A stretch of 64,000 bases of DNA, from assembly GCA_016212855.1 (NCBI GenBank), contig JACRDP010000010.1, positions 174,622 to 238,621 on the forward strand. The letters run 5' to 3'. Position numbers and translations under genes: made by a program. Position 1 is the stretch's first letter, and the number at the start of each line of letters is the position of its first letter. The stretch is from Elusimicrobiota bacterium. Its GTDB lineage: Bacteria > Elusimicrobiota > Elusimicrobia > UBA1565 > UBA9628. The notes beneath the pieces are model-generated. The model saw only the letters and a list, made by a program, of their open reading frames with translations, made no database searches and was not told the DNA's origin. Below are positions 6,489-63,871 of the stretch, piece by piece.

Positions 6489-8364
6489 GGGAGATCTCCT
6501 CCATTTTCGCCAGACGGCTGCGCACGGCGCTCAGCATCTCTTCGACGCCCGCCTTGCCTTTCTGCATGACGAGTTCGGCGCGGGTCTCGAGCGCCGCTTG
6601 TTCGGCGCGCGTGAGCGTGCGTCCGGTCAGAACGATGACCGGCACCCGGCTCAGCGCGGGCTCGGCCGCCATGGCCTCGAGAATCTTGGCGCCGTCCATG
6701 TCGGGCATGCCCAGGTCCACGAAGGCGAGGTCCGGCGGCTCGGCGCGCATGGACGCGAGCGCGCGCCGGCCGCTGCCGGAGCAGGTGACGCGATAGCCTT
6801 CGGACGTCAGGGCGATCTTCATGAATTCGGCCACGTCCGGGTCGTCGTCGGCGACGTGTATGCGACGGCCCTTGGGGGCGTCGAGCGCGTTGAGCCGGGC
6901 GATGAGGAGCGTGTAGTCCACGGGCTTGACCAGCCAATCGCTCACGCCCAGGGAATAGCCCAGCTCCCGGTTCTCGCCCGAGGTCACCACCAGGACGGGA
7001 ATGGCGGCGGTCTCGGGGTTTGATTTGAGAGACTGAAGAATCGTCCAACCGTCGAGGCGCGGCATCATGATGTCGAGAGTGATCGCGTAAGGCTTGAGAT
7101 TCTTGGCCAGGGCCAGGCCTTCCTCGCCTGATTGGGCCGTCGCCGTCGCGTAGCCTCCGGCCTCCAAGCCGTCGCGCAAGAGAGCCAAGGTGGTCTGGTC
7201 GTCTTCGATGATCAGCACGAGCTTGCTTCCGGCGTTCTGCGCGTGGGAGCGCCCCGCGGGGATGACGATCTGCGCCTGCTCGACGAGCACGTCCGCGCGG
7301 AAGGTCGTTCCGCGTCCCAGGACGCTCTCCACGCTTACGCCGCCGCCCATCAGCTCCGCTATTTTCTTGACGATGGAAAGCCCCAGCCCCGTGCCGCCGT
7401 GACGGCGAACGAGCGTGCCTTCAAGCTGGCGGAATTGTTCGAACAACTTGCCCTGATCCTCCGGGGAAATGCCCGCTCCGGTGTCGGCGACGCTCAACGT
7501 GAGACGGCGTTTGTCCGGCGTGACGACGGCGCAGATATCGATAGAACCCTTCTCGGTGAACTTCACGGCGTTGCCGGCGAGATTGATGAGTATCTGCCGC
7601 AGTTTGCTCTTGTCGGACCGCACGCGCAGTCCTGCGGCAGCCTGCGTACGCAAGGAGAGTCCCTTTTCCTCGGCCAGGACGGAGAGGGTTTGGCGAACTT
7701 CCTCGAGCAGCTCCGTGAGCTCAAAATCCTCCGGATGCACGGGCATCATTCCCGCGTTGAGCTTGGAGAGATCGAGCACGTCGTTGATCAAGGTCAGCAG
7801 CGCCCGGGCGCTGGCCGTGACGCGGCCCAGGGCCTGCGCCTGCGCCGCCGGGGCGGGGCCGTAAACGCCGTCGATGACGAGCTCGGTGTAGCCGATGATC
7901 GAATTGAGCGGCGTGCGCAGTTCATGGCTCATGCTCGCCAGGAACTCGCTTTTGACGCGGTCAGTTTCCTGCAGATCCGTCACGCGGCCTTTGAGCCGCG
8001 CGCGCTCGAGCGCGCGATCGAGCGTCACCGCCAAGCGCTCGATCTCGTAGGGCTTGGTGACATAATCGTAAGCGCCGCAGCGCATCGATTCGATGGCCGT
8101 CTCCAGGGTGGCGCAGCCCGTGGCCATGATCACCTCGGCGTGGGGCATGCGCTCCTTGATGCGCTTGAGCGTTTCCACCCCGCCGATGCCCGGCATCATG
8201 ATGTCGCACAGCACGACTTCGAAGCGGTCGAGGGCGGTCTTCTCGAGGGCCTCCTCGCCGCTGCCGGCGCCCGCGACCTCCCAGCGCTGCGACAGCTCGA
8301 AAGTGAGCATATCTCTCAGTCCGGCCTCGTCATCGACGATCAGAATCTTGGGCTTGGCGTCCAT
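6481..8364 (-). CDS. Cytoplasmic hybrid histidine kinase: receiver + HisKA + HATPase_c + receiver + receiver
   Basis: 627 aa. REC1 (ILIVDDEAG, VLCDIMMPGIGG, TKPY), H-box FLASMSHELRTPLNSIIGY, G boxes DTGAGIS and GGTGLGLSIV, REC2 (LIIEDDQ, ITLDIMMPRLDG, LVKP), REC3 (HVADDDPD, AFVDLGMPDMDG). Confidence 0.9.
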   Translation of the reverse strand: MDAKPKILIVDDEAGLRDMLTFELSQRWEVAGAGSGEEALEKTALDRFEVVLCDIMMPGIGGVETLKRIKERMPHAEVIMATGCATLETAIESMRCGAYDYVTKPYEIERLAVTLDRALERARLKGRVTDLQETDRVKSEFLASMSHELRTPLNSIIGYTELVIDGVYGPAPAAQAQALGRVTASARALLTLINDVLDLSKLNAGMMPVHPEDFELTELLEEVRQTLSVLAEEKGLSLRTQAAAGLRVRSDKSKLRQILINLAGNAVKFTEKGSIDICAVVTPDKRRLTLSVADTGAGISPEDQGKLFEQFRQLEGTLVRRHGGTGLGLSIVKKIAELMGGGVSVESVLGRGTTFRADVLVEQAQIVIPAGRSHAQNAGSKLVLIIEDDQTTLALLRDGLEAGGYATATAQSGEEGLALAKNLKPYAITLDIMMPRLDGWTILQSLKSNPETAAIPVLVVTSGENRELGYSLGVSDWLVKPVDYTLLIARLNALDAPKGRRIHVADDDPDVAEFMKIALTSEGYRVTCSGSGRRALASMRAEPPDLAFVDLGMPDMDGAKILEAMAAEPALSRVPVIVLTGRTLTRAEQAALETRAELVMQKGKAGVEEMLSAVRSRLAKMEEISHV

Positions 8365-8421
8365 AAGACTGAGTATATAGTCCCGGGATTGGGCCCGACT
8401 TACAGGGCGCTTAACTGACGC

Positions 8422-9528: not shown

Positions 9529-10128
9529 TTACTTCAGGGACTGCAGGATCTTGAGGACCTCGCCCTTGCGCGTGATGATCGCCTGTCGGGACGCGTCGGT
9601 TTTGGCCGAGTCCGGAAGCCCATCCACCAACTTCGCGTCCTCGGCGATGTCGCCGGAAATCTTGTCCACGGCGCGGATCTGGCGGCCGAGTTTGACGCTT
9701 TGCTTGCTCAGCTCCGCCAGCATTTCGACGTCGTCCGGACGCAGTTGCGCCATCTCGGCGTCCACGCGCTTCTTCTCGGCCTTAAGGGAGTCGCACACGG
9801 CCGTCCAATAGCCGGTCTTCTTTTTTAGGAGCGCCTTGACGTCCTCGATCGAGCCGTCTTTCGTCGCGACCGCGTCACCCTCGTCTCCATAGGGGAAGAC
9901 GACGAGAAGCGGCGCGATTTCGAGGGGGACGCCGGAGAGCTGCCGGGCGTATCCATCGGCCTTGCCCACGGCCGCGGCGATCGCCGCTTTGGCGGCCGCG
10001 GCGCAGACGCTTGCCTTCACGCCGCCGCAGCCGGAACCGTTCGGCGGCTTAGATGCCCCGGCACGAGCCGAGAGGGGGAGAAGGAGGGCCGCCGCCGTCA
10101 GGAGCTTGAGCGCCGTATTGTTGGTCAT
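9529..10128 (-). CDS. Hypothetical secreted protein
   Basis: 199 aa. Signal peptide (LKLLTAAALLLPLSARA), balanced Lys/Asp/Glu-rich composition unlike the overlapping Arg-rich frames. No family recognised. Confidence 0.7.
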   Translation of the reverse strand: MTNNTALKLLTAAALLLPLSARAGASKPPNGSGCGGVKASVCAAAAKAAIAAAVGKADGYARQLSGVPLEIAPLLVVFPYGDEGDAVATKDGSIEDVKALLKKKTGYWTAVCDSLKAEKKRVDAEMAQLRPDDVEMLAELSKQSVKLGRQIRAVDKISGDIAEDAKLVDGLPDSAKTDASRQAIITRKGEVLKILQSLK

Positions 10129-10166
10129 ACCGATAGGATAGCCGCCGCGGACACCGGCGCCGAGTG

Positions 10167-10207: not shown

Positions 10208-10216
10208 TGCTAGAAT
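10208..10216 (+). promoter_or_regulatory. Extended -10 promoter element TGcTAGAAT, 9 nt upstream of ATG 10226 (likely leaderless mRNA)
   Basis: TGCTAGAATTCC followed by gaggac then ATG. No Shine-Dalgarno in the gap. The identical 12-mer recurs at 36989-37000. Confidence 0.5.
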
Positions 10217-10225
10217 TCCGAGGAC

Positions 10226-10693
10226 ATGCGCGCACCAGCCGTCTTATTAGCCGCTTTAATAACCCTCGCCGCCTGCGGCGGAGGGGACACCGCCTCGCGC
10301 CTGCCGGACGTGCGCCTGCCCACCTTGGGCGGCCCCCTGGGCCCCTCGCTGGCCACCTGTGCCACGGCGAAATGCCTGACCGTGATCGTGGCTCCGTGGT
10401 GCTCGGTGTGCCACCAGGTCACGCCCGACATCGTGCGCCTGCGCCGCTTCCTCGATAAGACCGGCGTGTCCTCGCGCGTGGTCGTCGGCCTGGCCGAGAT
10501 CGAGCCGATCAAGGAGTTCGCCGCGCTGTACGGCTCCGACGCCTTGCTCGATGATCAAGGAGCGATCAAGGCGCGCGGCGTGCCGCAATTCATCGTGACC
10601 AACCGCGCCGGCGACGTGATCAAGCGCGTCGGAGGCTTTCCTCGCGGAGCCTCGTCGTCCGCAGATTTGGCCGCCTATTTCGATCTTCCCTAA
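10226..10693 (+). CDS. Thioredoxin-fold thiol:disulfide oxidoreductase lipoprotein (TlpA/ResA-like)
   Basis: 155 aa. Lipobox LITLAAC, CxxC active site APWCSVC. Confidence 0.8.
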   Translation: MRAPAVLLAALITLAACGGGDTASRLPDVRLPTLGGPLGPSLATCATAKCLTVIVAPWCSVCHQVTPDIVRLRRFLDKTGVSSRVVVGLAEIEPIKEFAALYGSDALLDDQGAIKARGVPQFIVTNRAGDVIKRVGGFPRGASSSADLAAYFDLP

Positions 10694-19724: not shown

Positions 19725-20347
19725 GGCTTGAACGCGGGAAAGAGCTTGCTCGGCGGAACGACCTTGTCGACCAGGCCGTACGCGACGGCCTCTTCGGCGG
19801 AGAGGTAGAAGTTGCGCTCGACGTCCTTGTCGAGCTTCTCGTAGGGCTGGCCGCAGTGCTTGGCCAGAATCTCGGAGAGGCGCTTGCGCGTGTGGCCCAT
19901 CTCCTCGCCTTCGATGCGGATATCGGTCTCCTGGCCCTGCATGCCGCCGCGGATCAGGGGCTGGTGGATCATCACGCGCGCGTGGGGGAGGATCATGCGC
20001 TTGCCCTTCGTGCCCGCGGCGAGCAGGACGGCGCCGAAGCTCATCGCCATGCCCATGCACAAAGTGGAGATGGGGGCGCGGATGAACTGCATGGTGTCAT
20101 AGACCGCGAGGCCGGCCGTGACCATGCCGCCGGGGGAGTTGATGTAGAGATGTATATCTTTCTCGCCGTCCTCGCCGTCGAGATAAAGGAGCTGCGAGAT
20201 GAGCAGGTTGGCCGAGTCGGTGGTGACGGCTCCGCCGTCGCCGCCGACAAAGATGATCCGCTCTTTCAACAGACGCGAAAAGATGTCGTAGCCGACGGCG
20301 GAACCTTGGTTCCACTTCTCGAGAACTTGGGGGAGGATGGCGGGCAT
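19721..20347 (-). CDS. clpP: ATP-dependent Clp protease proteolytic subunit (apparent Ser-His-Asn triad)
   Basis: 208 aa. Gapless alignment from memory to E. coli ClpP: YINSPGG, GMAMSFGAVLL (Ser), MIHQP (His), but VERNFYLSAEEAVAYGLVD where E. coli has TERDRFLSAPEAVEYGLVD. Confidence 0.9.
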
Positions 20348-20474
20348 ATTTAGAGGATAACTCTTTTGGAAACGGGGCTCAATAGATGCCGGGTAACGAT
20401 CATCTTTCCGGGCATCAACTCGTCCCGGGACGAGTGATTATCAATAGTAACGCGGCGCTTCGCAAATGTTCCGT

Positions 20475-22007: not shown

Positions 22008-22018
22008 GTCGAAACGAG

Positions 22019-22047
22019 ATGATAGCAAATCCCGAAAATAAAGCCAA
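22019..22047 (-). promoter_or_regulatory. Sigma-70-type promoter for tRNA-Lys/tRNA-Leu/tig: TTGGCT-N17-(TGc)TATCAT
   Basis: On the minus strand: TTGGCT (22047-22042), 17-nt spacer ending in TGC, TATCAT (22024-22019), 11 nt before the tRNA-Lys 5' end. Confidence 0.6.
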
Positions 22048-22138: not shown

Positions 22139-22144
22139 TATAAT
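22139..22144 (+). promoter_or_regulatory. -10 box TATAAT 10 nt upstream of ATG 22155 (likely leaderless or very short leader)
   Basis: ctttTATAATcgtacaagccATG, with no SD in the gap. Confidence 0.45.
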
Positions 22145-22154
22145 CGTACAAGCC

Positions 22155-24089
22155 ATGAAATATTGGATCTTCCAGAATAATCAGGTGTTGGGACCGTACG
22201 AGCCCGACGAGATGGGCAAAATTTCCGTCTTTTCTCCCGAAAGCCTGGTTTGCCCCGAAGGCCGCCGCGGCACGAGCATGGGCGACTGGCAGCGCGCCGG
22301 CATGGTGCCCGATCTGTCCGTCGCGCTGGTGCGCGCCAGCTCCGCCGGGGGCCGCACCGCGACGTTGTCGATCGCGGGCCTGCCTCCCGAGCCGACGCTC
22401 AAGGACCTCGCCCAGCTCGGCAGCATCCAGGAAAAAGTGGCGATGCTCGAGGAGGTCGTGCTCCAGCTGCAGGAAGGCCTGCGCGCCAAGGACGCCGAGC
22501 TTTCCTCGGTCCACCAGCAGCTCGCCGGCAAGAGCCTCGAGGCCAGCGAGATTCGCATGGAAGCCGAGAACCGCCAGCGCGAGGCCGACACGCTGCGACG
22601 CCAGATCGCCGGACTCGAAGAGCGCCTGGGCTCGCTGCGCGACATCAGCGAGACCTTGGGCAAAGCCGTCGCCGAAGAGAAGAAAGTCGAGCAGGACGTC
22701 GAGAAGCAGGGCCAGACCTTGTTCGATCTCACCCGCGAGGTCGAGGCCCTGCGCCGCCGCCTCGAGGGAGCCGAGTCGCGGCCGGCCCCCACCGCCGCGC
22801 CCGCGCCCGAGGCGTTCAAGCCGCCCGAGGCCTCGCCGTTCGCTCCGCCGTCCATGCCGCCGGCCGCGGCCGCGCCCGCCCCGTTCGGCGATGTCGCGGC
22901 GCCGGGCGTACCGCCCGGGGCGTTGACGCCGCCGCCGCTGCCCGTCTCCGCGCCCGCTCCCTTGCCCGCGCCCGAGCCGCGTCTTCCCGACCTCTCGGCG
23001 CCGGCCGAATTTCCGACGGTCAACGTCGCCCCGCTGCCCTCCTTGGACTCGCTCGCGCCGCCGCCTCCGCTCCCGCTGCCCAAAGAAGAGCCGCCCGTGC
23101 CGTCGTCCGTGCCCATGCCCATGCCCGGCGAGCCGGCCGCGTTCGACCCCATGCCCTTCGGCGGACCGGAAGGAGGCAGCCTCGCACCCGACCCCCTGGC
23201 CGCGCCGCTTCCGGACGTCGGCGGCGACATGCTCGCCCCGGAGCCGGTCGTTCCGGCTCCTGCCAAGGGAAAGAAGGCGCTCGTCCTCGGCGCCGTGCTC
23301 GGCCTCGCCGCTCTCGGCGGCCTGGCCGTCGTGGGCGGCTACGTGCCCGGCCTGCAAAAGCCCAAAGCGCCCGCGGCCGTCGTCGACCCCGCGCCGCTGC
23401 CCCCGCCCGAGCCGGCCGAGCTGACTCCCGCGCCGGATCCGCGCCAGCTCGCCGTCGATCTAGCCAAGGCCTGGAAGCTGCCGGGCGACCGCACGCTCGA
23501 ACGCGCCTTGGAGGAGCTCGCTCCGTCCAGCGGCAACCTCTCGCCCTGGATGGCCGAAACGCTCGCCGGCAACCGCGTGCAGGTGAACTATTTCGCCCGC
23601 AGCTCGGCGCCCGGCGCGCCGACGATCGCCTACGAATTCGAAGTCGATCTCGACGGCAAGACCTTGGTCGGACGCAACGCGGCGGCGAAATCGGTGCTTT
23701 CGGGCAAGGCCGTCGCGCCGCCCGCGCCGCCCAAGCCCAAGCCCGTCAAGGTCAAGCCCAAGGGCGCGGCGAAGCCCGCGCCGAAGCCGGTCGAGGACGC
23801 CACGCTCGATTCGATGCTCGGCGAAGAGCCGCCGAAGCCCGCCGCCAAGGCCGCCCCCGCGGCCAAGCCCTCGGAGAACCTGCCCTTGCCCGGCCACGCC
23901 GAGGAAGGCGCGACCTTGACCGACACCGGCGACGCGCCGCTCGACGAAGCTCTCGCCCCGCCGGCCGAGGAGAAGCCCCAGCCGCGCGCCAATCCGGCGA
24001 AGCGCGCGACGAAAGCCAAAGGCGCCAAGCCCGAGCCCAAAGAGGCGCCCGCCGACGAGACGTTGCTCGACGACCTGCTCAAGGAGTGA
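22155..24089 (+). CDS. GYF_2 (DUF4339)-domain protein with coiled coil, Pro-rich region, one TM and Lys/Ala/Pro-rich tail
   Basis: 644 aa. N-terminus MKYWIFQNNQVLGPYEPDEMGKI...GDWQRAGMVPDL fits GYF_2. TM ALVLGAVLGLAALGGLAVVGGYV. Confidence 0.7.
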   Translation: MKYWIFQNNQVLGPYEPDEMGKISVFSPESLVCPEGRRGTSMGDWQRAGMVPDLSVALVRASSAGGRTATLSIAGLPPEPTLKDLAQLGSIQEKVAMLEEVVLQLQEGLRAKDAELSSVHQQLAGKSLEASEIRMEAENRQREADTLRRQIAGLEERLGSLRDISETLGKAVAEEKKVEQDVEKQGQTLFDLTREVEALRRRLEGAESRPAPTAAPAPEAFKPPEASPFAPPSMPPAAAAPAPFGDVAAPGVPPGALTPPPLPVSAPAPLPAPEPRLPDLSAPAEFPTVNVAPLPSLDSLAPPPPLPLPKEEPPVPSSVPMPMPGEPAAFDPMPFGGPEGGSLAPDPLAAPLPDVGGDMLAPEPVVPAPAKGKKALVLGAVLGLAALGGLAVVGGYVPGLQKPKAPAAVVDPAPLPPPEPAELTPAPDPRQLAVDLAKAWKLPGDRTLERALEELAPSSGNLSPWMAETLAGNRVQVNYFARSSAPGAPTIAYEFEVDLDGKTLVGRNAAAKSVLSGKAVAPPAPPKPKPVKVKPKGAAKPAPKPVEDATLDSMLGEEPPKPAAKAAPAAKPSENLPLPGHAEEGATLTDTGDAPLDEALAPPAEEKPQPRANPAKRATKAKGAKPEPKEAPADETLLDDLLKE

Positions 24090-25099: not shown

Positions 25100-27249
25100 A
25101 GTTCCTCTTACTGGCCACGCTCCTATTATCGGGAACGTCCGCGCGCAGCGCGGACGCCGAGGAAGCCGTGCTCACCGCGCGCGGCGCCTTCCTGGCCGGG
25201 CGCTACGAGGACGCCGAGACCGCCTGGAAGTATCTCTCCGAGCTCGGCGTCGCCGCCCCCGAGCCCGAGGCGAACCTCGCTTTGACCTTGCGCGATCTGG
25301 GCCGCCACGAGCCCGCCACCGCGCAATGGCTCAAGGCGTCTCTGCTCGAAGGCGCCGACGGCTTCGCCTGGAACCAGCGCGGCTGGTCGTACCTCGCCAC
25401 CGGTCATTACCGCGAGGCGCGCGACGCGTTCACGCGCGCGGTCGATCGCTCCTCGACGACGGCCTCGCAGGCCGAGGCGAGCCTCGGGCTCGGCCTGGGC
25501 TACATCTTCGACGCCAAGCCGCGCGCCGCCGACGCGCCGCTGCGCCGGGCCGCGGCCGCCGGCCCGTACGCGATTTCCGTGTCCGCCCAGTTGACCGCGG
25601 AAGCGGCGCGCATGATCGGCGACCGTCAGACGGCGCTCACCTACCTGCGCCAGGCCGTCGACGTCGACGCCGCCAACAACGAGGCCCTGCGCGGGCTGGC
25701 CTACGCCCTGGCCGAGGCGGGCGACAACCGCGCCGCCTGGCGCGCCTACAAGAAAGTGCTCTCGCTCGACCCCAAGGACGCCGCAGCGCGCAAGGCCTAC
25801 GACAAGGCCGGGCGCTACATCGTCGGCGACCTCGACGCCGCCGCCGGCCTGCGCCGCGTCGCGCGCCCGGCGCTCGACGCCTCGAGCGAAGACCTGCCGC
25901 TGCCGGTCTCCACGCGCACGATCCGCGTCGGCCTGTACGGGGCTCCCGACGGCCGCCCGGCGGTGCTCACGCGCGCCTACGTCATGAGCAACAGCCCCTT
26001 CAAAGTCACCTCCATCTCCCACGGCGTCCTGCGCGACAACGGCCGCGCCGTGGACCAGTGGGAGATCGACTACCGTCCCGAAAACGGCCTCATCGAGGTG
26101 CGCGACGCCTCGCGCAACATCCTCTTCACCTCCAAGACGCCCTTCACCTTCGTGCCCGACGCCGCGCGCGGCTCGATCCTCGTCAAAACCGCCGCCATCG
26201 CCGACATGGTCGGCGTCGATCCCGGCGACCGCGAGGTCCGCGGCGGCGTCGAGGTCGTGCCCAATCCCTGGGGCTTCCGGCTCGTGCAGGTCGCACCCGT
26301 CGAGCAGTACCTCATCGGCGTCGTCTCCTACGCGCTGCCCATCGACAGCCCGCCCGAGGCCATGCGCGCGCAGGCGGTCGTCGCGCGCACCGCCGCCTAT
26401 TGGTCCATGGAGAACCGGGATGAGACGCTCGAACATTGCGATCTCCTCGACGACGATTCCACCCAGCGCACCATCGGCGTCAGCGGCGAGATGCGCGCCG
26501 CCTCTTTGGCCATCGTCGACACCGAAGGCCAGGCCCTCTCCCTCAAGGGGCGGCCGGCCCGCGTCTTCCAGCACCTCGACAGCGGCGGCGTCACCGAAGA
26601 AGGAACCGAAACCGGCCAGCCCGGCCTCGAGCACATCGTCTCGGTGCAGGACAGCGCCAAGACCTTTCTGCCCTGGCGCACGGCCCTCGAGCTCGAACGC
26701 TCCGTCCACGACGCGCCGCCCGAAGGGATGTTCGGCGAGGCCGCGGCCGTCTCCGTGCCCAACGCCACGCGCTGGATGCGGATCATCGACGGCAAGGAGC
26801 TGCGAAAGCGCGTCGAGCGGCGCAAGGATCTCGGCGCGATCCGCCGCGTGCGCGTCGCCGGCCGCACGCCGACCGGCCGCGTGCGCGCGCTCGAGGTGAT
26901 CGGCGCCGACGGAACGGGCCTCTACACCGGGCGCAAGGAGATCGACGAGCTGTTGGGGCCGGGGTCGCTGCGTTCGACCCTCTTCACCGTTCAACCGATC
27001 ATGGACGGCAAAACCGTCTCCCGCCTGATCCTCTGGGGCGCCGGCACCGGCCACGGCCTCGGCTTCGCGCGCCAGGGCGCCTTGGGCCAGGCCGCGCTCG
27101 GCGTGAAATGGAAGGAAATCGTCCGTCACTACTTCCCGCGCCTGGAGCTCAAGGACTTCCTGCATCCCGCCGCCCCGTCGAAAATCCCCAAGGGAGTGGG
27201 GCCCTACAAGCGCACCCTCGACTTCCATAAGCAGAAGAAGAACAAGTAG
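25096..27249 (+). CDS. Secreted TPR-repeat + SpoIID/LytB-domain protein (peptidoglycan remodelling)
   Basis: 717 aa. Signal peptide, TPR-like N-terminal half. SpoIID-like core VEQYLIGVVSYALPIDSPPEAMRAQAVVARTAAY and GHGLGFARQGALGQA. Confidence 0.75.
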   Translation: MKFLLLATLLLSGTSARSADAEEAVLTARGAFLAGRYEDAETAWKYLSELGVAAPEPEANLALTLRDLGRHEPATAQWLKASLLEGADGFAWNQRGWSYLATGHYREARDAFTRAVDRSSTTASQAEASLGLGLGYIFDAKPRAADAPLRRAAAAGPYAISVSAQLTAEAARMIGDRQTALTYLRQAVDVDAANNEALRGLAYALAEAGDNRAAWRAYKKVLSLDPKDAAARKAYDKAGRYIVGDLDAAAGLRRVARPALDASSEDLPLPVSTRTIRVGLYGAPDGRPAVLTRAYVMSNSPFKVTSISHGVLRDNGRAVDQWEIDYRPENGLIEVRDASRNILFTSKTPFTFVPDAARGSILVKTAAIADMVGVDPGDREVRGGVEVVPNPWGFRLVQVAPVEQYLIGVVSYALPIDSPPEAMRAQAVVARTAAYWSMENRDETLEHCDLLDDDSTQRTIGVSGEMRAASLAIVDTEGQALSLKGRPARVFQHLDSGGVTEEGTETGQPGLEHIVSVQDSAKTFLPWRTALELERSVHDAPPEGMFGEAAAVSVPNATRWMRIIDGKELRKRVERRKDLGAIRRVRVAGRTPTGRVRALEVIGADGTGLYTGRKEIDELLGPGSLRSTLFTVQPIMDGKTVSRLILWGAGTGHGLGFARQGALGQAALGVKWKEIVRHYFPRLELKDFLHPAAPSKIPKGVGPYKRTLDFHKQKKNK

Positions 27250-27258
27250 GATCATGTA

Positions 27259-28401
27259 ATGGCGGTCAAGGTCGCGCATCTCGTCACACGTCTCGACATG
27301 GGCGGCGCGCAGCAAAACACGCTGCATACGGTCCGTCATTTGGATCGCGCGAAATTCGACCCGCTCCTGATCTGCGGCTCCGGGGGGCTTCTCGACGAGG
27401 ACGTCGTCAATGATCCTTCCGTACGTTCTCGATTCGTTGATTCCCTGGTTCGAGACATCAATCCGTTTCTCGATCTGCTGGCTCTTTTTGAGCTCTCCAA
27501 TATTCTGTTATCCGAGCGCCCTTCCGTTTTACACACCCACAGTTCCAAAGCCGGCATCCTCGGCCGCCTCGCCGCCGCCCTCGCGGGCGTGCCCGTCGTG
27601 GTCCACACCTATCACGGCTTCGGCTTTCACGACCGCCAGCCGGCCGTCGTGAAGTCGCTTTACGTGTTCCTGGAGAAAATCTGCGCGTATTTCACCGACG
27701 CGCTCGTCTTCGTGTCGAAAGCGAACATCGATTACGCGGTCGCCCACGATCTCGTCCAGCCTCAAGACGCCGTCCTCATCCGCTCCGGCGTGAAGCTCTC
27801 AGGCCTTCCCGCGCCGGTCGACGCCGCCAAGCTCAAGATGTCGGCCGGCGTGGGCATGCACAAGCTCCTCGTCGTCTCCGTCGGCAATTTAAAGCCGCAG
27901 AAGAACGCGGCCGACTTCGTCGAAGCCGCCGCCGCCGTCCTCGCCGAGGTTCCCGACGCGCGCTTCGTCTTCCTCGGCGACGGCCCCCAGCGCCGCGCCC
28001 TCGAGGCGCGCGCCTTCGTCCTCGGCCTCGAGGGCAAGGTCCTCTTCCTCGGCTGGCGCCGCGACGCGGCCGAGTGGCTGGCGGCCGCCGACGTGTTCGT
28101 GATGACCTCCCTATGGGAAGGCCTGCCGCGCGCGCTCGTCGAGGCGATGAAAAGCGGCGCGCCTCCGGTCTGCTACGCCACGGACGGCGTCACCGACCTG
28201 ATCCTGGACGGAGTGAACGGCTATCAGGTCGAGCCGGGCAATTACCGCGCCTTGGCGGCGCGAGTGAGCGCGCTCCTTAAAGACGAGCCTTCCCGCAAAA
28301 AGATGGGCGCCGCCGCCGCGTCCGCGATCGGCCCCGAGTTCGACATCGACGGCATGGTGCGTTCTCAGGAACGCCTGTATGAGCGACTCCTCTCCGTTTA
28401 A
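27259..28401 (+). CDS. Glycosyltransferase family 4 (GT-B, RfaB-like)
   Basis: 380 aa. VLHTHSSKAGILGR and the C-terminal EGLPRALVEAMKSGAPPV motif (E-x7-E type). Confidence 0.8.
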   Translation: MAVKVAHLVTRLDMGGAQQNTLHTVRHLDRAKFDPLLICGSGGLLDEDVVNDPSVRSRFVDSLVRDINPFLDLLALFELSNILLSERPSVLHTHSSKAGILGRLAAALAGVPVVVHTYHGFGFHDRQPAVVKSLYVFLEKICAYFTDALVFVSKANIDYAVAHDLVQPQDAVLIRSGVKLSGLPAPVDAAKLKMSAGVGMHKLLVVSVGNLKPQKNAADFVEAAAAVLAEVPDARFVFLGDGPQRRALEARAFVLGLEGKVLFLGWRRDAAEWLAAADVFVMTSLWEGLPRALVEAMKSGAPPVCYATDGVTDLILDGVNGYQVEPGNYRALAARVSALLKDEPSRKKMGAAAASAIGPEFDIDGMVRSQERLYERLLSV

Positions 28402-29239: not shown

Positions 29240-29248
29240 TGCTTTAAT
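29240..29248 (+). promoter_or_regulatory. Extended -10 element TGcTTTAAT 9 nt upstream of ATG 29258
   Basis: aatTGcTTTAATgacggcgcgATG, with no SD. Confidence 0.45.
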
Positions 29249-29257
29249 GACGGCGCG

Positions 29258-30763
29258 ATGGACATCTCGCGCCGTTCCTTCATCAAATGGGTGATCGCCG
29301 GGGCGGCCTCCGCCTCGCCCTTCGGTTGCTCTCCCGCAGTCCATGGCGGGGGAAAGAACATCCCCGAGGCGAAGCTCGGCAGCGAAAGCAATAAGGTCTG
29401 TCACGACGTCCGCGACGGCCTGCTGCAGTCCGGCTTTCCGCCTCCCTCCAAATCCGTCGACATCGTCATCGTCGGCGGCGGCTCCTCCGGCCTCGCCGCC
29501 GCCGAGCGCTGTTTCGGCTCCGACTTCCTGCTCCTCGAAAAAGATGCCCACATGGGCGGCAACGCCTGGTCCGAGACCTGGGAAGGCCTCGACTACTGCA
29601 CCGGCTCCGCCTGGATGTCCTTCGACAACCCCGAGGTCGTCAAGCTGTTCCAGCGCTGGAAGCTCGAGCTTCCCGAGATCAAGGGCAACGACTCCGCCCA
29701 CTGGGACGGCACGTGGATCAAGGATTTCTGGAACAGCGACCCCGACTACCCGAGCTACGCTCAGCTCCCGTATCCGAAATCCGTCCAGGATGATTTCCGC
29801 CGCTTCATCCGCGAGACCAAGAAGATCGACAGGACCAAGGACGCGGACAAGCTCGACGCGATGACTTTCCAGGACCTGTTCAAGGGCTACGACGGCCGCG
29901 TCCAGCAGTACTGGGACTATTTCGGGCCGTCCAATTGGGGCGCGCAGACCCAAGACACGTCCGCGCTCATCGGCCTGACCGCCGTCCATGAATGGGCGCC
30001 CTGCAAGCGCAACACCTACGAGGGCGGCCTGGGCATGGTCACGCGCAAGGTCTTCGCCTCATTCCCCGATGACAAGAAGAAACGTTGCGTTACCAACGCT
30101 GCGGTCTTCGCGGTGCGCCGCGAGGGCAAACGCGTCAATGTCTCCTTCATGAAAGACGGAAAGCCCGAAACGGTCTCCGCGAAATCCGTCATCATGTGCG
30201 CGCCTAAATTCATCGCCAAGCATCTGCTCAACGACCTCCCCGAAGCGCAGTCCGCCGCGATGGCCAAGATGCGCTACGCGCCCTACCTCGTCTACAACTT
30301 CTGCTTCGACAAGGTCGTCTGGAACCTCAACTACGACAACTGGGCCATCGGCGCCCGGCACTTCACCGACTTCATCCCGGCCGACTACGCCACTCACGCC
30401 GACGGCGGCGACCTGTCGCGAAAGCAGGTCATCACCGTCTACGCCCCGAAAACCGAGGCGGCGCGCGCCGACCTCCTCGACGACGAGGAGGTCCTCGCCG
30501 AAGCCCACGCCGCCGGCAACGAGCTGTGCGGAGTCTTCTTCCCGTCCTGGGCCGAGCAGCTTCGCGAGGTCCGCGTCTACCGCCGGGGCCACCCGATGCC
30601 GATGTCCGCGCCGGGCTCCTGGTCCAAGCTGCAGAAAGCCACCCCGCTCGACCACGCGCCCGTCTATTTCTCGCACAGCGACAATTCCGGAACCGTCTCG
30701 GACCTTTACGAGGCGGCCCTCGGCGCCATCAAGGCGGCCGAGAAAGCGTTGACGCACGTTTAA
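29258..30763 (+). CDS. Tat-exported FAD-dependent oxidoreductase (amine-oxidase/phytoene-desaturase-like fold)
   Basis: 501 aa. Twin-arginine signal [19 protein letters not shown]. Dinucleotide motif [16 protein letters not shown]. Confidence 0.75.
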
Positions 30764-48900: not shown

Positions 48901-50576
48901 TAGGGGGCGCCGGGGTAGGCCACCGGGTCCGTCGACAGGGCCGAGATGAGCATTTCGCCCGGAGCCGCGACGTCGGGCTGCTGACGTCCGTCGCGCGTCG
49001 GCCCCTGGGAGCTGAAGACGGACAGGTTCCCGGGCGTCGCCGTGTTGCCGAAGGCGTAGGGGCCGAGCCCGTCGATCGAGTCCCAAAATTTCCTCGAGAC
49101 GTACGAGGCGGCGCCGAAGACGTTCTGCGCGCACGCCGGCTCGCCGAGCGTCATCGTGTTGTCCACGTTCGAGCTGTAGCTCGTCGAGCTGATGTCCACC
49201 CAGCCGTCGACCCGGCCGGTGCCGCCGTTGCTCGTGCGCGCGATGGAGACGCTGACCGCCGCCGCGGTGATCCCGACGCCGGTGAGCCGTTCGATTTCGA
49301 CGTAGATCTGCTTGTGGCCGAGCGGATGCGCGGGATTGACGCCGTTGTAGATGCGGATCGTGTGCCCGCCCAGAAGGCCCCCCGTGCTCGAGCCGGCGAC
49401 GGCGAAAGTGCTGCCGCCGATGCCCGCCAGGCTCACCGTCGCCGTATAGGCGTCGCCGCCCGGATGCCAGAGTTCGACGTCGGCGAAGGCGGTCTGGTAG
49501 TCCACGCCGATGGTGAAGACGGTGGAGCCGCCGGAGCCGACGGTCGCGCTCGCGTGCGGCTTGTCGCCGCCCTCGTTGCCCATCGCGACGACGACGGGCG
49601 TACTCGCCGCGACGGCCGCGACCCCGGTCTCGAACGTCGAGGTGCCGTCATGGGGCCCGTACTGGGAGCCGAGGCTGAGGTTGATCACCGCGCGCTTGCC
49701 CGCCGCGGCCGCCTTCGCGACGATGTAGTTCATGCCGTTGACGATGCCGGTCAGCGAGAAGTCCGTGCGGACCATCACGATGTCCGCCGACGGCGCCATG
49801 CCCATGTACCCGCCCGTCTCGGTGCCGTCGCTGGCGGCGATGCCGGCGACGTGCGTCCCGTGACCGACGTCGTCGGTCGTGTTGATGACGACGACGCCGC
49901 CCTGTATCTTGCTGGTCAGCTGGGCGTTCGTGTATTCGGCGCCGTACGTGAAGCCCGCCGGAAACGGGCCGCTCGCGTGCGAGCTGATCGTCTGGTCCCA
50001 AATGCTGAGAATGCGCGAGGTGTTCGGACCGTCGTTGATGAAGTCCTTGTGCGTGTAGTCGATGCCCGTGTCCACGATGCCGACGACGACGCCGGCGCCC
50101 GTCGCGTTGGTCAGGTCGCTCGCGGCCGCGCCGTAGATCGCTCCCAGCGCGAGTCCGCTCGCGCTCGAGCTCGAGCGCACGACGTTCATCGACGGATGCG
50201 CGTAGACCGCGTGCTCGATCGCCTGCACGCGCCCGTCGAGGGCGAGCGCGTCGATCGCCGCGTCGCTCAACCGCGCCGCGACGACGTCGCCGGCCTGGCT
50301 GTCGAGTTCGGCGGACGGGAAGGCGGCCCGCAGAGCCGCGAGCGGCGTTCCCGGGGAGACGCGGATCAGCACGTTGCGCAACGGACCGGCCGCCGGCGCG
50401 CCGCCGCCGGCGCCGAGGGGGGAGTACCCGCCGCCGCCCCCGCCGCCTAAAGCGGCGGAAGCGCTTCTACGCGCGCGTAAACGCGCGTCGAGCTTCGAGG
50501 CCTGCGCCGCCGCGGACACCGACAAAGACGCGGCGAGCAGGGCCCCGAGCATCAACGGCATGCTCCGGATGACCAT
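45981..50576 (-). CDS. Secreted subtilisin-family (S8) serine protease with ~8 Fn3-like repeats and a FlgD-Ig/T9SS-type C-terminal domain
   Basis: 1531 aa. Signal peptide, triad motifs GIVDTGID, HGTHVAGIAAS, GTSMASPVVAG. Repeated ~95-aa units with (L/T)YY.R motifs roughly at nt 46590-48660. C-terminal ...GTKIRVLSLTGEQVW...GVLTWDGRNSHGRNCASGTYYAII. Confidence 0.85.
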   Translation of the reverse strand: MVIRSMPLMLGALLAASLSVSAAAQASKLDARLRARRSASAALGGGGGGGYSPLGAGGGAPAAGPLRNVLIRVSPGTPLAALRAAFPSAELDSQAGDVVAARLSDAAIDALALDGRVQAIEHAVYAHPSMNVVRSSSSASGLALGAIYGAAASDLTNATGAGVVVGIVDTGIDYTHKDFINDGPNTSRILSIWDQTISSHASGPFPAGFTYGAEYTNAQLTSKIQGGVVVINTTDDVGHGTHVAGIAASDGTETGGYMGMAPSADIVMVRTDFSLTGIVNGMNYIVAKAAAAGKRAVINLSLGSQYGPHDGTSTFETGVAAVAASTPVVVAMGNEGGDKPHASATVGSGGSTVFTIGVDYQTAFADVELWHPGGDAYTATVSLAGIGGSTFAVAGSSTGGLLGGHTIRIYNGVNPAHPLGHKQIYVEIERLTGVGITAAAVSVSIARTSNGGTGRVDGWVDISSTSYSSNVDNTMTLGEPACAQNVFGAASYVSRKFWDSIDGLGPYAFGNTATPGNLSVFSSQGPTRDGRQQPDVAAPGEMLISALSTDPVAYPGAPYVTPDGKHRVNRGTSMASPVVAGILAARLQWNPGITVAGLRSLLRTAAKTDGATGSVPNGAWGYGKVNASPQPVVPPTGLSGTALGVSSITWTWSAVTGADAYSLYYATNPASRLASVSALTYTQTALQTNTTTGVIVKGSGAGVDGPSGFASTSTYPAPPAALPTVTPHIDSVTVSWTVCPPSPAAVSCWGYAVEASTAANLTGTVFSATTLNRANSSLQVTGLQALTTYYFRQSTLNFYAAPAATGAVKSTTLTDLVAPINPSLSGATTSTIRFDWNTAGNAPGLTYLAEASTAASFSGTVLSSATKNAFAILSGLATNTSYYFRVQAVGGPYLIVGAPPTPTIATNPGLSTAPYSGVTQTGFTVAWSSGGNAGDTLYQADISVSASFVPVLASSITRNVFATFGGLTPNTLYYTRALAISHGGIASAYTTFGSTPTFVLDPTLPAAPFSNVGPDGFTFSFNGGGNPAGTVYVVRISTDPGFGALAGSVNITSTFTAFSGLNSNRLYYAAVAALNLSGSPTAFTAAVSTGTTVVAPGAPGAAVSARTTSSLSTSWSASTLGPGTQYVVQASSFANFSLIAGSSTTLNVTATVSALPANTLHYLRVRALSLNPPTPDGSWTAIGSGSTLANAPGAAGSPFTTIGVASVTVAWTALPLAPQPAACEGYLAELSVTPGFSPILRSVTATTAQSTATFTGLAYGTLYYMRVAALDWEGNPNYLVIGSTRTGTPMLSSGTVTGSGLTLTLPPSFLVAPAVNVTIPAGAFAPGTVVTMLAGVTQDLTNPPSAVAKLTALGSSVGIDISAGGIQPLKPVRLAMSYDPLLLPLGADPRKLLIARYDEASALWTLVPSAADTSANQIVATLDHFSSYSPFFAAAGGSVSDGVVFPQPWEVGEPNGAYGSQALTFANFPDGTKIRVLSLTGEQVWEGTAAANGVLTWDGRNSHGRNCASGTYYAIIEGGGARKVRRVVLIR

Positions 50577-50584
50577 CTCCCGAC

Positions 50585-50613
50585 AGGATAGCCCCGACCC
50601 TAGACCGTGTCAA
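50585..50613 (-). promoter_or_regulatory. Near-consensus promoter TTGACA-N17-TATCCT, 8 nt upstream of the protease ATG (leaderless-type)
   Basis: The minus strand reads cATTGACAcggtctagggtcggggcTATCCTgtcgggagATG. No SD. Confidence 0.6.
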
Positions 50614-50661
50614 TGCCGTACATATTAAGAGGAAGAGGGTGAAAAAGGGTGATTTTCTCGG

Positions 50662-50694
50662 TAAAAAAAGACGCCGGGCGCAAGCGCCCGGCGC
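50662..50694 (-). terminator. Rho-independent terminator after the LuxR-type regulator
   Basis: On the minus strand: CGCCGGGCG-cttg-CGCCCGGCG followed by TCTTTTTTTA. Confidence 0.8.
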
Positions 50695-50730: not shown

Positions 50731-51414
50731 TCAGTCGGCTTTTTCGGCGGAAATCAGCCCCATATCGATGCCCTTGACCACCGCTTCGGTGCGGTTGGAG
50801 ACGCTGAGCTTCTGGAACATGCTGTTGAGATGATTTTTGATCGTCTTGACGCTGCAGGTGAGCGACGAAGCGATCTCTTTGTTGGACTGCCCTTGTCCGA
50901 GGTTCGACAGAACCTTGATTTCGGTCTTGGTCAGCGCGACCAAGGAGGCCTCGGAGCTGGCCGAGCCCATCTGGCGCAGGCCGTCGATGAGCTTGCTCAT
51001 GACCGGCTGGGGAATCATCACGCCTTGATTGGCGAACGTTTTGAGCGCGTTGACGAGCTCGGCGGCGGGAAGCATCTTGGACAGGTAACCGTTGGCGCCG
51101 GCCTGGATGGCCTCCATCACGTGCGCCTCGTCTTCGTAGGAAGAAAGGATCAACACGTTGGTGGTCGGGCAGTCCTTGTGAATCTGCCTCGTGGCTTCGA
51201 TGCCGTCCATGTGGGGCAGTTTGATGTCGAGCAGGATCACGTTGGGCTTGAGCTTCTTGACGAGGCGCAGCGCCTCGCGCCCGTCGGCGGCCTCGGCGAT
51301 CACGGTAATGTTCTTCTCGTTCTCGAGAAGATCCTTGATGCCTTCGCGGAACAAGGTCTGATCGTCGGCGATGATGACGGAGATCTTTTTAGCGGGAGAA
51401 TTCTTCTTGGCCAT
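50731..51414 (-). CDS. NarL/FixJ (LuxR-type HTH) response regulator
   Basis: 227 aa. VIIADDQ, VILLDIKLPHMDG, LSKM, C-terminal LTKTEIKVLSNLGQGQSNKEIASSLTCSVKTIKNHL. Confidence 0.9.
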   Translation of the reverse strand: MAKKNSPAKKISVIIADDQTLFREGIKDLLENEKNITVIAEAADGREALRLVKKLKPNVILLDIKLPHMDGIEATRQIHKDCPTTNVLILSSYEDEAHVMEAIQAGANGYLSKMLPAAELVNALKTFANQGVMIPQPVMSKLIDGLRQMGSASSEASLVALTKTEIKVLSNLGQGQSNKEIASSLTCSVKTIKNHLNSMFQKLSVSNRTEAVVKGIDMGLISAEKAD

Positions 51415-51443
51415 GAATCAATACTACACAATTTAGCGTCGCG

Positions 51444-51473
51444 TTGTCGCGAACGTGCGCGTTGTGATACAAT
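51444..51473 (+). promoter_or_regulatory. Promoter for tRNA-Met: TTGTCG-N18-(TGa)TACAAT
   Basis: -10 at 51468-51473 with TG at 51465-51466, 11 nt before the tRNA 5' end. Confidence 0.5.
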
Positions 51474-51484
51474 GTCGGCCTTCC

Positions 51485-53202: not shown

Positions 53203-53206
53203 AACG

Positions 53207-53755: not shown

Positions 53756-53759
53756 CAAC

Positions 53760-55464: not shown

Positions 55465-55465
55465 C

Positions 55466-63265: not shown

Positions 63266-63274
63266 TGGTATAAT
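63266..63274 (+). promoter_or_regulatory. Consensus extended -10 TGgTATAAT 9 nt upstream of ATG 63284
   Basis: tcTGgTATAATcttatcgcgATG, with no SD. Confidence 0.55.
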
Positions 63275-63283
63275 CTTATCGCG

Positions 63284-63871
63284 ATGACAAAGGTGCCGCT
63301 GCTGCTCCTGCTGGCCGTTCCGGCCGCCGCGAATCCCCAGGCGATGACCGCCACGCTCGAGGCGCTGCGCAGCGAAGCCGCCGCCGACCCCGCCGCGCTG
63401 CGCAACCGCGAAACCGCCTCCGCGCGCGCCGGCAAGGGTTTCGATCAGTCCTTCACGATCCAGACCTTGACGCCCGTCGAATACGTCCAGTACGGCGAAC
63501 CGCGCAAGAATCCTCCGCCCGTGATCGAGGAGAAGCTCCCGCCGGCTCCGTCCGAGCGCAAACTCCCTGCCGCCGAGGACGCTCCCAAGACCGACGGCAC
63601 CGGCGCCGACTACTACTTCGAGGGCAAGAAGCCGCTCAACGGCATCACGATCTACACGCCCGTCAAGGGCGAGGGCTCGACGAGCGAGGGCGCCTCGCCG
63701 ACGGACAAGTACGGGAAATACGGCAAGATCGGCATCGGCGTGGGCGTCGGGCTCATCGTCGCCGGCCTCCTCCTCGGCGGCTGGCCGCTCGTGGCGCTCG
63801 GCATCGTCGGCGGCATCCTGATCGGCGCCGGCGCGGTCCTCTCCTTCCTCTTCGGCAAGAAGAAGAAATAG
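63284..63871 (+). CDS. Hypothetical secreted protein with C-terminal double-TM/Gly-rich anchor
   Basis: 195 aa, read in the frame of tracked ORF 61982..63871 from ATG 63284. MTKVPLLLLLAVPAAA signal and C-terminal IGIGVGVGLIVAGLLLGGWPLVALGIVGGILIGAGAVLSFLFGKKKK. Confidence 0.65.
   Translation: MTKVPLLLLLAVPAAANPQAMTATLEALRSEAAADPAALRNRETASARAGKGFDQSFTIQTLTPVEYVQYGEPRKNPPPVIEEKLPPAPSERKLPAAEDAPKTDGTGADYYFEGKKPLNGITIYTPVKGEGSTSEGASPTDKYGKYGKIGIGVGVGLIVAGLLLGGWPLVALGIVGGILIGAGAVLSFLFGKKKK

What the first reader, a model, noticed from the sequence alone, without database searches (positions are those of the whole stretch)
50574..50613. Operon-first genes have a -10 box 6-10 nt from the ATG and no Shine-Dalgarno, suggesting widespread leaderless mRNAs
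Seen: the best example is the S8 protease, TTGACA-N17-TATCCT-N8-ATG (50613-50574, minus strand). Other cases with the same geometry:
- Plus strand: TGcTAGAAT-N9-ATG 10226; TATAAT-N10-ATG 22155; TAGGAT-N6-ATG 27259; TGcTTTAAT-N9-ATG 29258; TAAAAT-N7 to the second ATG at 33976; TGcTAGAAT-N8-ATG 37006; TGgTATAAT-N9-ATG 63284.
- Minus strand: TATACT-N7-ATG 8364; TATCCT-N6-ATG 10128; TTGAGC-N17-TATCCT-N6-ATG 20347 (clpP); TAGTAT-N6-ATG 51414.
None of these gaps contains an AGGAG-like motif. By contrast, ald, icd, rpmF, acpP, the histone gene and nuoM have clear SDs (AGGAG/AGGAGG/AAGGAG).
Established: transcription starts about 6-8 nt downstream of the -10 hexamer, so these geometries place the transcription start at or next to the start codon.
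Inference: a dual translation-initiation regime, leaderless for first genes and SD-led or coupled for internal genes.
Basis: partly seen in the sequence, partly recalled or inferred. Interest (0 to 1): 0.5.

Follow-up and report, generated by a model that had tools for sequence, protein, structure and literature searches.

The report
Promoters abutting start codons: leaderless genes
In this high-GC Elusimicrobiota genome fragment, most genes that begin a transcription unit have a promoter -10 box only 6-10 bases before the ATG and no ribosome-binding site, so their mRNAs probably start at or next to the start codon; this is a known bacterial strategy, seen here in a phylum where it has not been described.

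Summary
All 13 quoted geometries are in the sequence at the stated coordinates, and I found one more (GT2 gene, TAGAAT-N8-ATG 32950).

- **Enrichment:** 10 of 13 genes preceded by a gap of 50 nt or more, or by a divergent gene, carry TANNNT 5-10 nt before the ATG. Only 2 of 43 other genes do (Fisher 5e-7; resampling expects 1.2).
- **Start codons:** these ATGs are the 5'-most possible start of their ORFs.
- **Shine-Dalgarno (SD) motifs:** 60% of the other genes have an SD 4-mer (background 15%). Only 1 of 13 -10-proximal genes does.
- **Conservation:** orthologous loci from Elusimicrobiota MAGs keep the -35, the -10 and the spacing while the spacer sequence drifts (clpP, S8, GYF, GT4, amine oxidase).
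- **Leader gain or loss:** more distant orthologues of the LuxR-type regulator keep the -10 but have a 20-35 nt leader with a strong SD, often with a TTG or GTG start.

This is the known "TA-led" or GeneMarkS-2 "group C" regime, in a new clade.

Caveats:
- No transcription start data exist.
- N8-N10 cases, including the flagged S8 promoter, may have 1-4 nt leaders.
- Two examples are internal promoters, not operon-first.

Interest is low to moderate.

The parts
50574..50613 (-). S8 protease promoter and start: -35 TTGACA 50613-50608, 17-nt spacer, -10 TATCCT 50590-50585, 8-nt spacer gtcgggag, ATG 50576-50574
   Evidence: 6/6 match at -35. The geometry is conserved in 4 orthologues (window, L037, L116, L117), all N8. 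The ATG is the 5'-most start, with an in-frame stop 11 codons upstream.
50662..50694 (-). Intrinsic terminator of the upstream LuxR-type regulator gene (10-bp GC stem plus T7). It makes the S8 gene its own transcription unit.
20345..20382 (-). clpP promoter and start: TTGAGC 20382-20377, N17, TATCCT 20359-20354, N6, ATG 20347
   Evidence: The consensus of 14 orthologous upstreams keeps TTGAG and TAnnCT but not the spacer sequence. In distant orthologues the -10 moves together with a shifted ATG.
51412..51426 (-). LuxR-type response regulator: TAGTAT 51426-51421, N6, ATG 51414
   Evidence: The closest relatives keep TA(G/A/C)TAT-N5-7-ATG. More distant relatives keep the -10 but have a 20-35 nt leader with an SD and often a TTG or GTG start.
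10126..10140 (-). hyp199 (signal-peptide protein): TATCCT 10140-10135, N6, ATG 10128
10208..10228 (+). Redoxin-like lipoprotein: extended -10 TGcTAGAAT (hexamer 10211-10216), N9, ATG 10226
   Evidence: Seven family members in the related loci have N6-N9 geometry.
8362..8377 (-). Hybrid response-regulator/histidine-kinase gene: TATACT 8377-8372, N7, ATG 8364
   Evidence: 57-nt gap upstream.
22139..22157 (+). GYF-domain gene: TATAAT 22139-22144, N10, ATG 22155
   Evidence: TTTATAAT-N9/10-ATGAAATATTGG is conserved in more than 20 loci. L034 instead has TATACT followed by a 31-nt leader with AGGAG.
27247..27261 (+). GT4 glycosyltransferase: TAGGAT 27247-27252 (its TAG is the stop codon of the upstream gene), N6, ATG 27259. 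This is an internal promoter.
   Evidence: TAGAAT-N6-8-ATG is conserved in orthologues, including ones where the stop codon is separate.
29240..29260 (+). Amine oxidase: TGcTTTAAT (hexamer 29243-29248), N9, ATG 29258. Internal promoter in a 21-nt gap.
   Evidence: AAAATTGCTTTAAT-N7-9-ATG/GTG is conserved in 7 loci.
32936..32952 (+). GT2 glycosyltransferase: TAGAAT 32936-32941, N8, ATG 32950.
   Evidence: Orthologues have TAGAAT-N9-ATG (L041) and TAGAAT-N7-GTG (L118).
33963..33978 (+). hyp991: TAAAAT 33963-33968, N7, ATG 33976. The ATG at 33970 would lie upstream of the predicted transcription start.
   Evidence: The L117 orthologue has TAAACT-N7-ATG with no upstream ATG.
36989..37008 (+). hyp208: TGcTAGAAT (hexamer 36992-36997), N8, ATG 37006
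   Evidence: The L117 orthologue has TGcTACGAT-N10-ATG. The L120 orthologue is SD-led with a GTG start.
63266..63286 (+). hyp195: TGgTATAAT (hexamer 63269-63274), N9, ATG 63284
   Evidence: 83-nt gap after nuoN.
51444..51484 (+). Control: tRNA-Met promoter TTGTCG-N18-TGaTACAAT, 11 nt before the mature tRNA 5' end at 51485
22008..22047 (-). Control: tRNA-Lys promoter TTGGCT-N17-TGcTATCAT, 11 nt before the mature tRNA 5' end at 22007

Best explanation
The hexamers are sigma-70-type -10 promoter elements. Some are paired with a good -35 (S8, clpP). Others are near-consensus with an extended TGn.

Because they sit 6-10 nt before the start codon, RNA polymerase should initiate at the A of the ATG or within 1-4 nt upstream of it. 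The resulting mRNAs are leaderless or nearly so, with no room for a Shine-Dalgarno site, and would be translated by direct recognition of a 5'-terminal AUG. Genes inside operons, and the minority of first genes that have a leader, use a canonical GGAGG-type Shine-Dalgarno site and/or start-stop overlap coupling.

This is the 'TA-led' (Zheng 2011) or GeneMarkS-2 'group C' regime, here in a high-GC groundwater-type Elusimicrobiota lineage.

Shown: the motif, its spacing, its enrichment, its restriction to unit-first genes, the SD contrast and the evolutionary conservation.
Inferred: the transcription start positions and the mode of translation initiation.
For: 1. Geometry and statistics. 10 of 13 first genes against 2 of 43 others, Fisher 4.7e-7. 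There is a sharp offset peak at N6-N10 in the window and in two independent sets of related loci.
2. Start codons are secure.
- Each is the 5'-most start of its ORF, with a nearby in-frame stop upstream.
- Pfam domains or signal peptides begin within a few residues of the start.
- The next in-frame starts would truncate conserved domains.
3. Promoter character.
- S8 has TTGACA-N17-TATCCT directly after an intrinsic terminator.
- TGn extensions occur on promoters that lack a -35.
- The same architecture precedes two tRNA genes.
4. Conservation.
- The clpP -35 and -10 are conserved and the spacer sequence is not.
- The -10 moves with a shifted ATG in distant clpP orthologues.
- S8 is N8 in all 4 orthologues.
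- The GYF, GT4, amine oxidase and hyp991 geometries are conserved.
5. Natural switches. Orthologues of the LuxR-type regulator, the GYF gene and hyp208 that have leaders carry a strong SD and often a TTG or GTG start.
6. SD contrast: 26 of 43 against 1 of 13, background 15%.
7. Literature. TANNNT about 10-12 bp upstream of the start codon is read as leaderless (PMC3160421). Group C is defined the same way (PMC6028130). The modal transcription start lies 7 bp after the -10 (PMC5730371).
Against: - There are no transcription start or ribosome data for this organism or any relative.
- Spacers N8-N10 (7 of 13 cases, including S8) put the ATG at positions 9-11 after the -10. E. coli RNA polymerase uses position 9 in about 7% of starts and rarely initiates further downstream. 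Many of these may therefore have 1-4 nt leaders.
- The purine-rich end of the S8 spacer (GGAG, AAGG, GAAG) is conserved and unexplained.
- Only 64 kb plus syntenic loci were examined, so 'genome-wide' is an extrapolation. Crude automatic gene calling finds the geometry in only about 11-37% of apparent first ORFs across the window and the Elusimicrobiota locus sets, although that method mis-extends starts.
- The ATG preference (13 of 13) does not differ significantly from other genes, and some orthologues use GTG.
Confidence: 0.8

Rival explanations
1. The promoters are real, but transcripts start at the modal position 7 bp after the -10. Only the N6/N7 genes would then be truly leaderless. The N8-N10 genes, including the flagged S8 gene, would carry 1-4 nt stub leaders. 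This refines the main reading rather than opposing it.
For: E. coli transcription starts fall at positions 6, 7, 8 and 9 in 8, 55, 29 and 7% of cases (PMC5730371). S8 has an A at position 7 (gtcgggAg). N8 is strictly conserved in 4 S8 orthologues. The TGn promoters all have N8-N9.
Against: Pyrimidine-rich discriminators shift starts downstream, and 4 of the 7 N8-N10 promoters have such discriminators (TCC, CTC, TCC, CTT). The RNA polymerase of this phylum has not been characterised. The N6 peak dominates in the related loci.
Confidence: 0.45
2. Start codons are mis-assigned. The real starts lie downstream, so the promoters make ordinary short-leadered mRNAs.
For: S8 has in-frame ATGs at codons 6 and 9. 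The ATG at codon 9 has GGAG 10 nt upstream.
Against: - The S8 orthologues L037, L116 and L117 begin MVFSR, MQFRRRK and MHFRGRK, with the positively charged signal-peptide n-region directly after the first ATG.
- Receiver, GT2, GT4, GYF and ClpP domains begin within 3-18 residues of the proposed starts.
- The next in-frame starts fall inside conserved domains.
- The N-termini are conserved across orthologues.
Confidence: 0.05
3. The A/T-rich hexamer is a non-SD translational element on leadered mRNAs (an unstructured or S1-binding site, as in 'group B' genomes). The promoters would lie further upstream.
For: The motif is A/T-rich in a 66% GC genome and lies where ribosome-binding sites normally sit.
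Against: - It is almost absent from internal genes (2 of 43), and those use SD motifs.
- It has the specific T-A...T pattern, with TGn or a -35 at 17 nt.
- The same element precedes tRNA genes.
- In leadered orthologues it stays about 30-40 nt upstream while an SD appears near the start.
- The S8 unit has a terminator 70 nt upstream and no other promoter-like site.
Confidence: 0.05
4. The pattern is a chance co-occurrence, picked out by eye.
For: TANNNT is a loose motif.
Against: See for the statistics. Conservation in orthologues is shown.
Confidence: 0.01

Closest known systems
GeneMarkS-2 'group C' genomes (Lomsadze et al. 2018, PMC6028130)
   Same: [quoted passage not shown] This is the same dual pattern, inferred in the same sequence-based way.
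   Different: Group C is reported mainly for Actinobacteria (90%) and Deinococcus-Thermus (97%). Elusimicrobia are not mentioned in the text, and the supplementary tables were not available. The spacer range here reaches N9-N10.
'TA-led' leaderless genes of Zheng et al. 2011 (PMC3160421)
   Same: [quoted passage not shown] The initiation mode changes between orthologues with phylogenetic distance.
   Different: That survey of 953 genomes does not mention Elusimicrobia. Here the leader gain or loss can be seen directly at single loci (LuxR-type regulator, GYF, hyp208).
Experimentally mapped leaderless transcriptomes (Deinococcus deserti, Mycobacterium tuberculosis and M. smegmatis), as cited in PMC6028130 and PMC4633059
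   Same: High-GC bacteria with a large share of leaderless first genes. In D. deserti, 167 of 262 genes with mapped transcription starts were leaderless.
   Different: Those cases have dRNA-seq, proteogenomic or ribosome-profiling support. Here the evidence is sequence only.

Membership tests
Bacterial leaderless-mRNA regime (TA-led / GeneMarkS-2 group C) | A -10-like TANNNT about 6-8 nt upstream of the start codon of first genes in operons, enriched over background | tested here: met
   10 of 13 first genes against 2 of 43 others. Offset peak at N6-N10. Also seen in related loci.
Bacterial leaderless-mRNA regime (TA-led / GeneMarkS-2 group C) | These genes lack an SD, while internal or leadered genes carry an SD-type RBS | tested here: met
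   SD 4-mer in 1 of 13 against 26 of 43 genes, background 15%. Conserved GGAGG before tig and AAGGAG before hyp179 and the histone gene.
Bacterial leaderless-mRNA regime (TA-led / GeneMarkS-2 group C) | Transcription start mapped at, or within a few nt of, the start codon | not testable with these tools
   No RNA 5'-end data are available. The position is inferred only from the -10 location and E. coli start-site rules.
Bacterial leaderless-mRNA regime (TA-led / GeneMarkS-2 group C) | Translation initiates on the 5'-terminal start codon, with AUG preferred | tested here: inconclusive
   13 of 13 window cases use ATG, but most other genes do as well. In the LuxR-type regulator family, leaderless orthologues use ATG while leadered ones often use TTG or GTG. 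Amine oxidase and GT2 orthologues with the same geometry use GTG.
Sigma-70-type promoter | -35 TTGACA-like and -10 TATAAT-like hexamers 16-18 bp apart, or an extended TGn -10 | tested here: met
   S8 matches 6/6 at -35 and 4/6 at -10, with N17. clpP has TTGAGC-N17-TATCCT. Four promoters have a TGn extension. The same architecture is found at tRNA-Met and tRNA-Lys. Several promoters (hyp199, 8364, GYF) have no recognisable -35.
Non-SD RBS regime (GeneMarkS-2 group B, Bacteroidetes-like) | The same non-SD motif precedes all genes, internal ones included | tested here: not met
   The motif is found at 2 of 43 non-first genes, and SD is enriched there.

The most novel reading that the evidence does not exclude
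A whole high-GC branch of Elusimicrobiota may run most of its transcription units (about three quarters in this window) as leaderless mRNAs. That share would match or exceed Deinococcus. Individual genes would flip between leaderless-ATG and leadered-SD (often TTG or GTG) forms over short evolutionary distances, making the clade a natural series for studying how leaders are gained and lost.
Probability: 0.45. Interest if true: 0.45.

Novelty: new member of a known kind. Interest (0 to 1): 0.3.

Why it matters
- **Gene annotation:** in these uncultured genomes, start calling should use a leaderless-aware model. SD-biased callers will misplace starts; one public call for a hyp208 orthologue already starts at an internal ATG.
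- **Taxonomic reach:** it extends leaderless-dominated gene expression to a phylum outside Actinobacteria and Deinococcus-Thermus.
- **Study material:** the orthologue pairs that differ only by the presence of a leader plus SD are ready-made for studying how initiation modes evolve.

It does not reveal a new mechanism.

Tried and rejected
- **Exact-protein look-up of the LuxR-type regulator** to find the source contig: not on record.
- **GeneMarkS-2 supplementary tables**, to check whether any Elusimicrobia genome was classed as group C: not held.
- **Automatic gene calling** (5'-most start plus a GC3 filter) to estimate the leaderless fraction across all loci. It mis-extends starts and recovers only 7 of the 10 curated first-gene cases in the window, so I use it only as a crude lower bound.
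- **Start-codon bias as a discriminator:** not significant within the window.
- **Rfam scan:** only the three tRNAs were found, and no riboswitch or leader RNA lies upstream of the candidate genes.
- **Y(-1)R(+1) rule**, read by eye, to place the transcription start in the N8-N10 spacers: ambiguous.
- **Unused tools:** I did not run the large protein-homology searches or structure prediction, because start-codon placement was settled by orthologous loci.
Full report
**Source and context**

The window is 66% GC. Its trigger factor, ClpP and other proteins are 75-96% identical to those of groundwater and soil Elusimicrobiota MAGs, including the complete genome CP096137.1. No exact source record was found.

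Pfam annotation gives this gene map:
- a two-component gene cluster (433-9413, minus strand);
- ald;
- serA-serC-lon-clpP-tig preceded by tRNA-Lys and tRNA-Leu;
- a GYF-domain operon;
- glycosyltransferases and icd;
- a toxin-antitoxin pair;
- yceD-rpmF-plsX-fabG-acpP-rnc;
- an M1 peptidase;
- a 1531-aa S8 protease;
- a LuxR-type response regulator;
- tRNA-Met;
- a histone-fold gene;
- an 11-gene nuo operon.

**Checking the observation**

A motif-centred scan that uses no gene calls shows an excess of ATG after TANNNT at spacers 5-9: 32 occurrences, against about 2.5 per spacer elsewhere.

I then listed every start codon that lies 4-11 nt after a TANNNT.

I also took the 5'-most start of every coding-like ORF and plotted where TANNNT falls upstream.
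- Window: 10 hits at N6-N10, against 8 over the other 41 offsets.
- 35 related genome loci: 53 hits at N6-N10, against about 1.3 per offset.
- 67 more diverse metagenome loci: a weaker peak, N6=15 and N7=7 against about 3 per offset.

**Curated gene table**

I fixed the gene starts by Pfam domain boundaries, tRNA positions, start-stop overlaps and orthologue N-termini.
- 13 genes are preceded by a gap of 50 nt or more, or by a divergent neighbour. 10 of them have TANNNT at N5-N10.
- Only 2 of the 43 other genes do (Fisher 4.7e-7).
- Markov-resampled upstream regions give a mean of 1.2 and never more than 6 in 5000 trials.
- The rate over all ATGs in the window is 2.3%.

The three first genes without the geometry are:
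- the HATPase gene at 9413 (TACTCT-N19, with GAGGTG);
- the histone gene (AAGGAG; it follows tRNA-Met);
- the higB-like toxin gene.

rpmF and tig are also leadered and have SD-like motifs.

Their gaps are 9 and 21 nt, and the TAG of TAGGAT is the upstream gene's stop codon. Their motifs are nevertheless conserved in relatives. One example is aagTAG-ttg-TAGAAT-N6-ATG, where the stop codon is separate. Another is AAAATTGCTTTAAT-N7-9-ATG/GTG in seven loci. They look like genuine internal promoters.

**Are these promoters?**

- The S8 unit is the cleanest case. A strong intrinsic terminator (50694-50662) ends the regulator gene. TTGACA-N17-TATCCT-N8-ATG follows.
- clpP has TTGAGC-N17-TATCCT-N6-ATG.
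- Promoters without a recognisable -35 tend to have near-consensus -10 boxes with a TGn extension (10226, 29258, 37006, 63284).
- The same architecture precedes tRNA-Met (TTGTCG-N18-TGaTACAAT) and tRNA-Lys (TTGGCT-N17-TGcTATCAT), in each case 11 nt before the mature 5' end. This serves as an internal positive control for sigma-70-type promoters in this organism.

**Comparative evidence**

- **clpP:** fourteen orthologous upstream regions give the consensus TTGAG...AAgAGCTAtcCT.T...t-ATG. The -35 and -10 are conserved and the 6-nt spacer is not.
  - In distant orthologues whose N-terminus is three residues shorter, the -10 has moved with the ATG (TATAAT-N6-ATG, TATCAT-N6-ATG).
  - In genomes where clpP abuts the tig stop codon, the promoter is absent.
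- **S8 protease:** all four orthologues have TTGACA-N15/17-TATCCT-N8-ATG. A positively charged signal-peptide n-region follows directly after the ATG.
- **hyp991:** the orthologue has TAAACT-N7-ATG and no upstream ATG. This supports the second ATG (33976) as the start in the window.
- **LuxR-type regulator:** this is the most telling case.
  - The closest relatives keep TA(G/A/C)TAT-N5-7-ATG.
  - Orthologues at 73-89% protein identity keep a TGn-TAGTAT/TAGACT -10 but have a 20-35 nt leader with GAGGAGG-type SD motifs, and often TTG or GTG starts.
- **Other switches:** the same change is seen for the GYF gene in L034 (a 31-nt leader with AGGAG) and for hyp208 in L120 (an SD-led GTG start).

The hexamer therefore behaves as a promoter element whose distance to the start codon is free when an SD is present and fixed at 6-10 nt when none is.

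**The other half of the regime**

An SD 4-mer (AGGA, GGAG or GAGG) lies at -18..-4 in 26 of 43 non-proximal genes. The background at random positions is 15%. Only 1 of 13 proximal genes has one, and that is the AGGA inside TAGGAT.

Twelve internal genes overlap the upstream stop by 4 nt as ATGA, GTGA or TTGA, and several more overlap by other lengths or abut it. The lon start overlapping the clpP stop is conserved as TTGA, GTGA or ATGA in many orthologues.

Published data list a canonical CCUCCUUU anti-SD for Elusimicrobia (PMC10783764).

**Mechanism and its limits**

In E. coli the modal transcription start is 7 bp downstream of the -10. Positions 6, 7, 8 and 9 are used in 8, 55, 29 and 7% of cases, and pyrimidine-rich discriminators shift starts downstream (PMC5730371).
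- N6 and N7 spacers (six window genes) put the A of the ATG at positions 7-8, so these should be strictly leaderless.
- N8-N10 spacers (seven genes, including the flagged S8 promoter) put it at positions 9-11. These may carry 1-4 nt leaders, which is still too short for an SD.
- Nothing here measures RNA 5' ends or translation, so these steps are inferred.

**Comparison with known systems**

The pattern matches two published descriptions.
- Zheng et al. 2011 describe 'TA-led' genes, with TANNNT about 10-12 bp upstream of the start codon and only T, A and the final T informative in high-GC genomes (PMC3160421).
- GeneMarkS-2 defines 'group C' genomes by a Pribnow box 6-8 nt from the first gene in an operon and SD-type RBSs elsewhere. 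Group C comprises 1028 of 4769 bacteria, mainly Actinobacteria and Deinococcus-Thermus (PMC6028130).

Neither paper mentions Elusimicrobia. Full-text searches found no paper describing leaderless expression in this phylum.

**Verdict**

This is a real, conserved and well-supported instance of a known regime in a new clade, not a new mechanism. I put confidence at about 0.8 that these are promoters giving leaderless or near-leaderless mRNAs. Interest is 0.3.

Noticed in passing
window 51666-51848 (+): A 60-aa protein (MAEALVVASKVKK...) is homologous to the Bdellovibrio bacterial histone Bd0055 (PDB 8cmp and 8fvx, E about 1.5e-7). It has no Pfam hit at E 0.01. It is conserved next to tRNA-Met in many relatives and has a strong AAGGAG/GGGAGG SD.
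   Followed up: partly
window 10166-10199: A perfect 13-nt inverted repeat (GTCCTAGGGCCCC / GGGGCCCTAGGAC, 8-nt loop) sits in the 97-nt gap between the two divergent -10-proximal promoters (genes at 10128 and 10226). It covers both expected -35 positions, so it may be a shared operator.
   Followed up: partly
window 50614-50640 (-); L037, L116, L117: A conserved CTTCCCTTAATA element lies immediately upstream of the S8 -35 in all four orthologues. It could be an UP element or a binding site, possibly for the adjacent LuxR-type regulator.
   Followed up: no
window 50577-50584 (-) and orthologues: The 8-nt S8 spacer always ends in a purine run abutting the ATG (GGGAG, GGAG, AAAGG, GGAAG). This is too close to act as an SD, and the reason for its conservation is unknown.
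   Followed up: no
L038, L040, L041, L044, L062, L086 and others, compared with window 51414: Orthologues of the LuxR-type regulator switch between a leaderless ATG form and a leadered form (about 20-35 nt) with a strong SD and a TTG or GTG start, while keeping the same -10 box.
   Followed up: yes
window 32282-32993 (+): A higB-like (Gp49/DUF891) toxin and HTH antidote pair lies in a lower-GC patch. The GT2 gene's -10 and ATG lie inside the 3' end of the antidote ORF.
   Followed up: partly
window 52846-63200 (+): The nuo operon runs nuoA-B-C-D-H-I-J-K-L-M-N with no nuoE, nuoF or nuoG (an 11-subunit type). It starts by ATGA overlap with a Methyltransf_28 gene.
   Followed up: no
window 19721-19724 (-) and loci L001-L035: lon starts with TTG overlapping the clpP stop codon (TTGA). 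The overlap is kept as TTGA, GTGA or ATGA in many orthologues (shown directly for about a dozen), which suggests termination-reinitiation coupling.
   Followed up: partly
L116 14405-18975 (CP096137.1): In the complete genome, the S8 protease orthologue is called as two genes (639 and 884 aa) instead of one of about 1525 aa. This could be a frameshift, a pseudogene or an assembly error.
   Followed up: no
L010, L011, L018, L027, L030: In some relatives clpP follows the tig stop codon within a few nucleotides, with neither the promoter nor an obvious SD.
   Followed up: no
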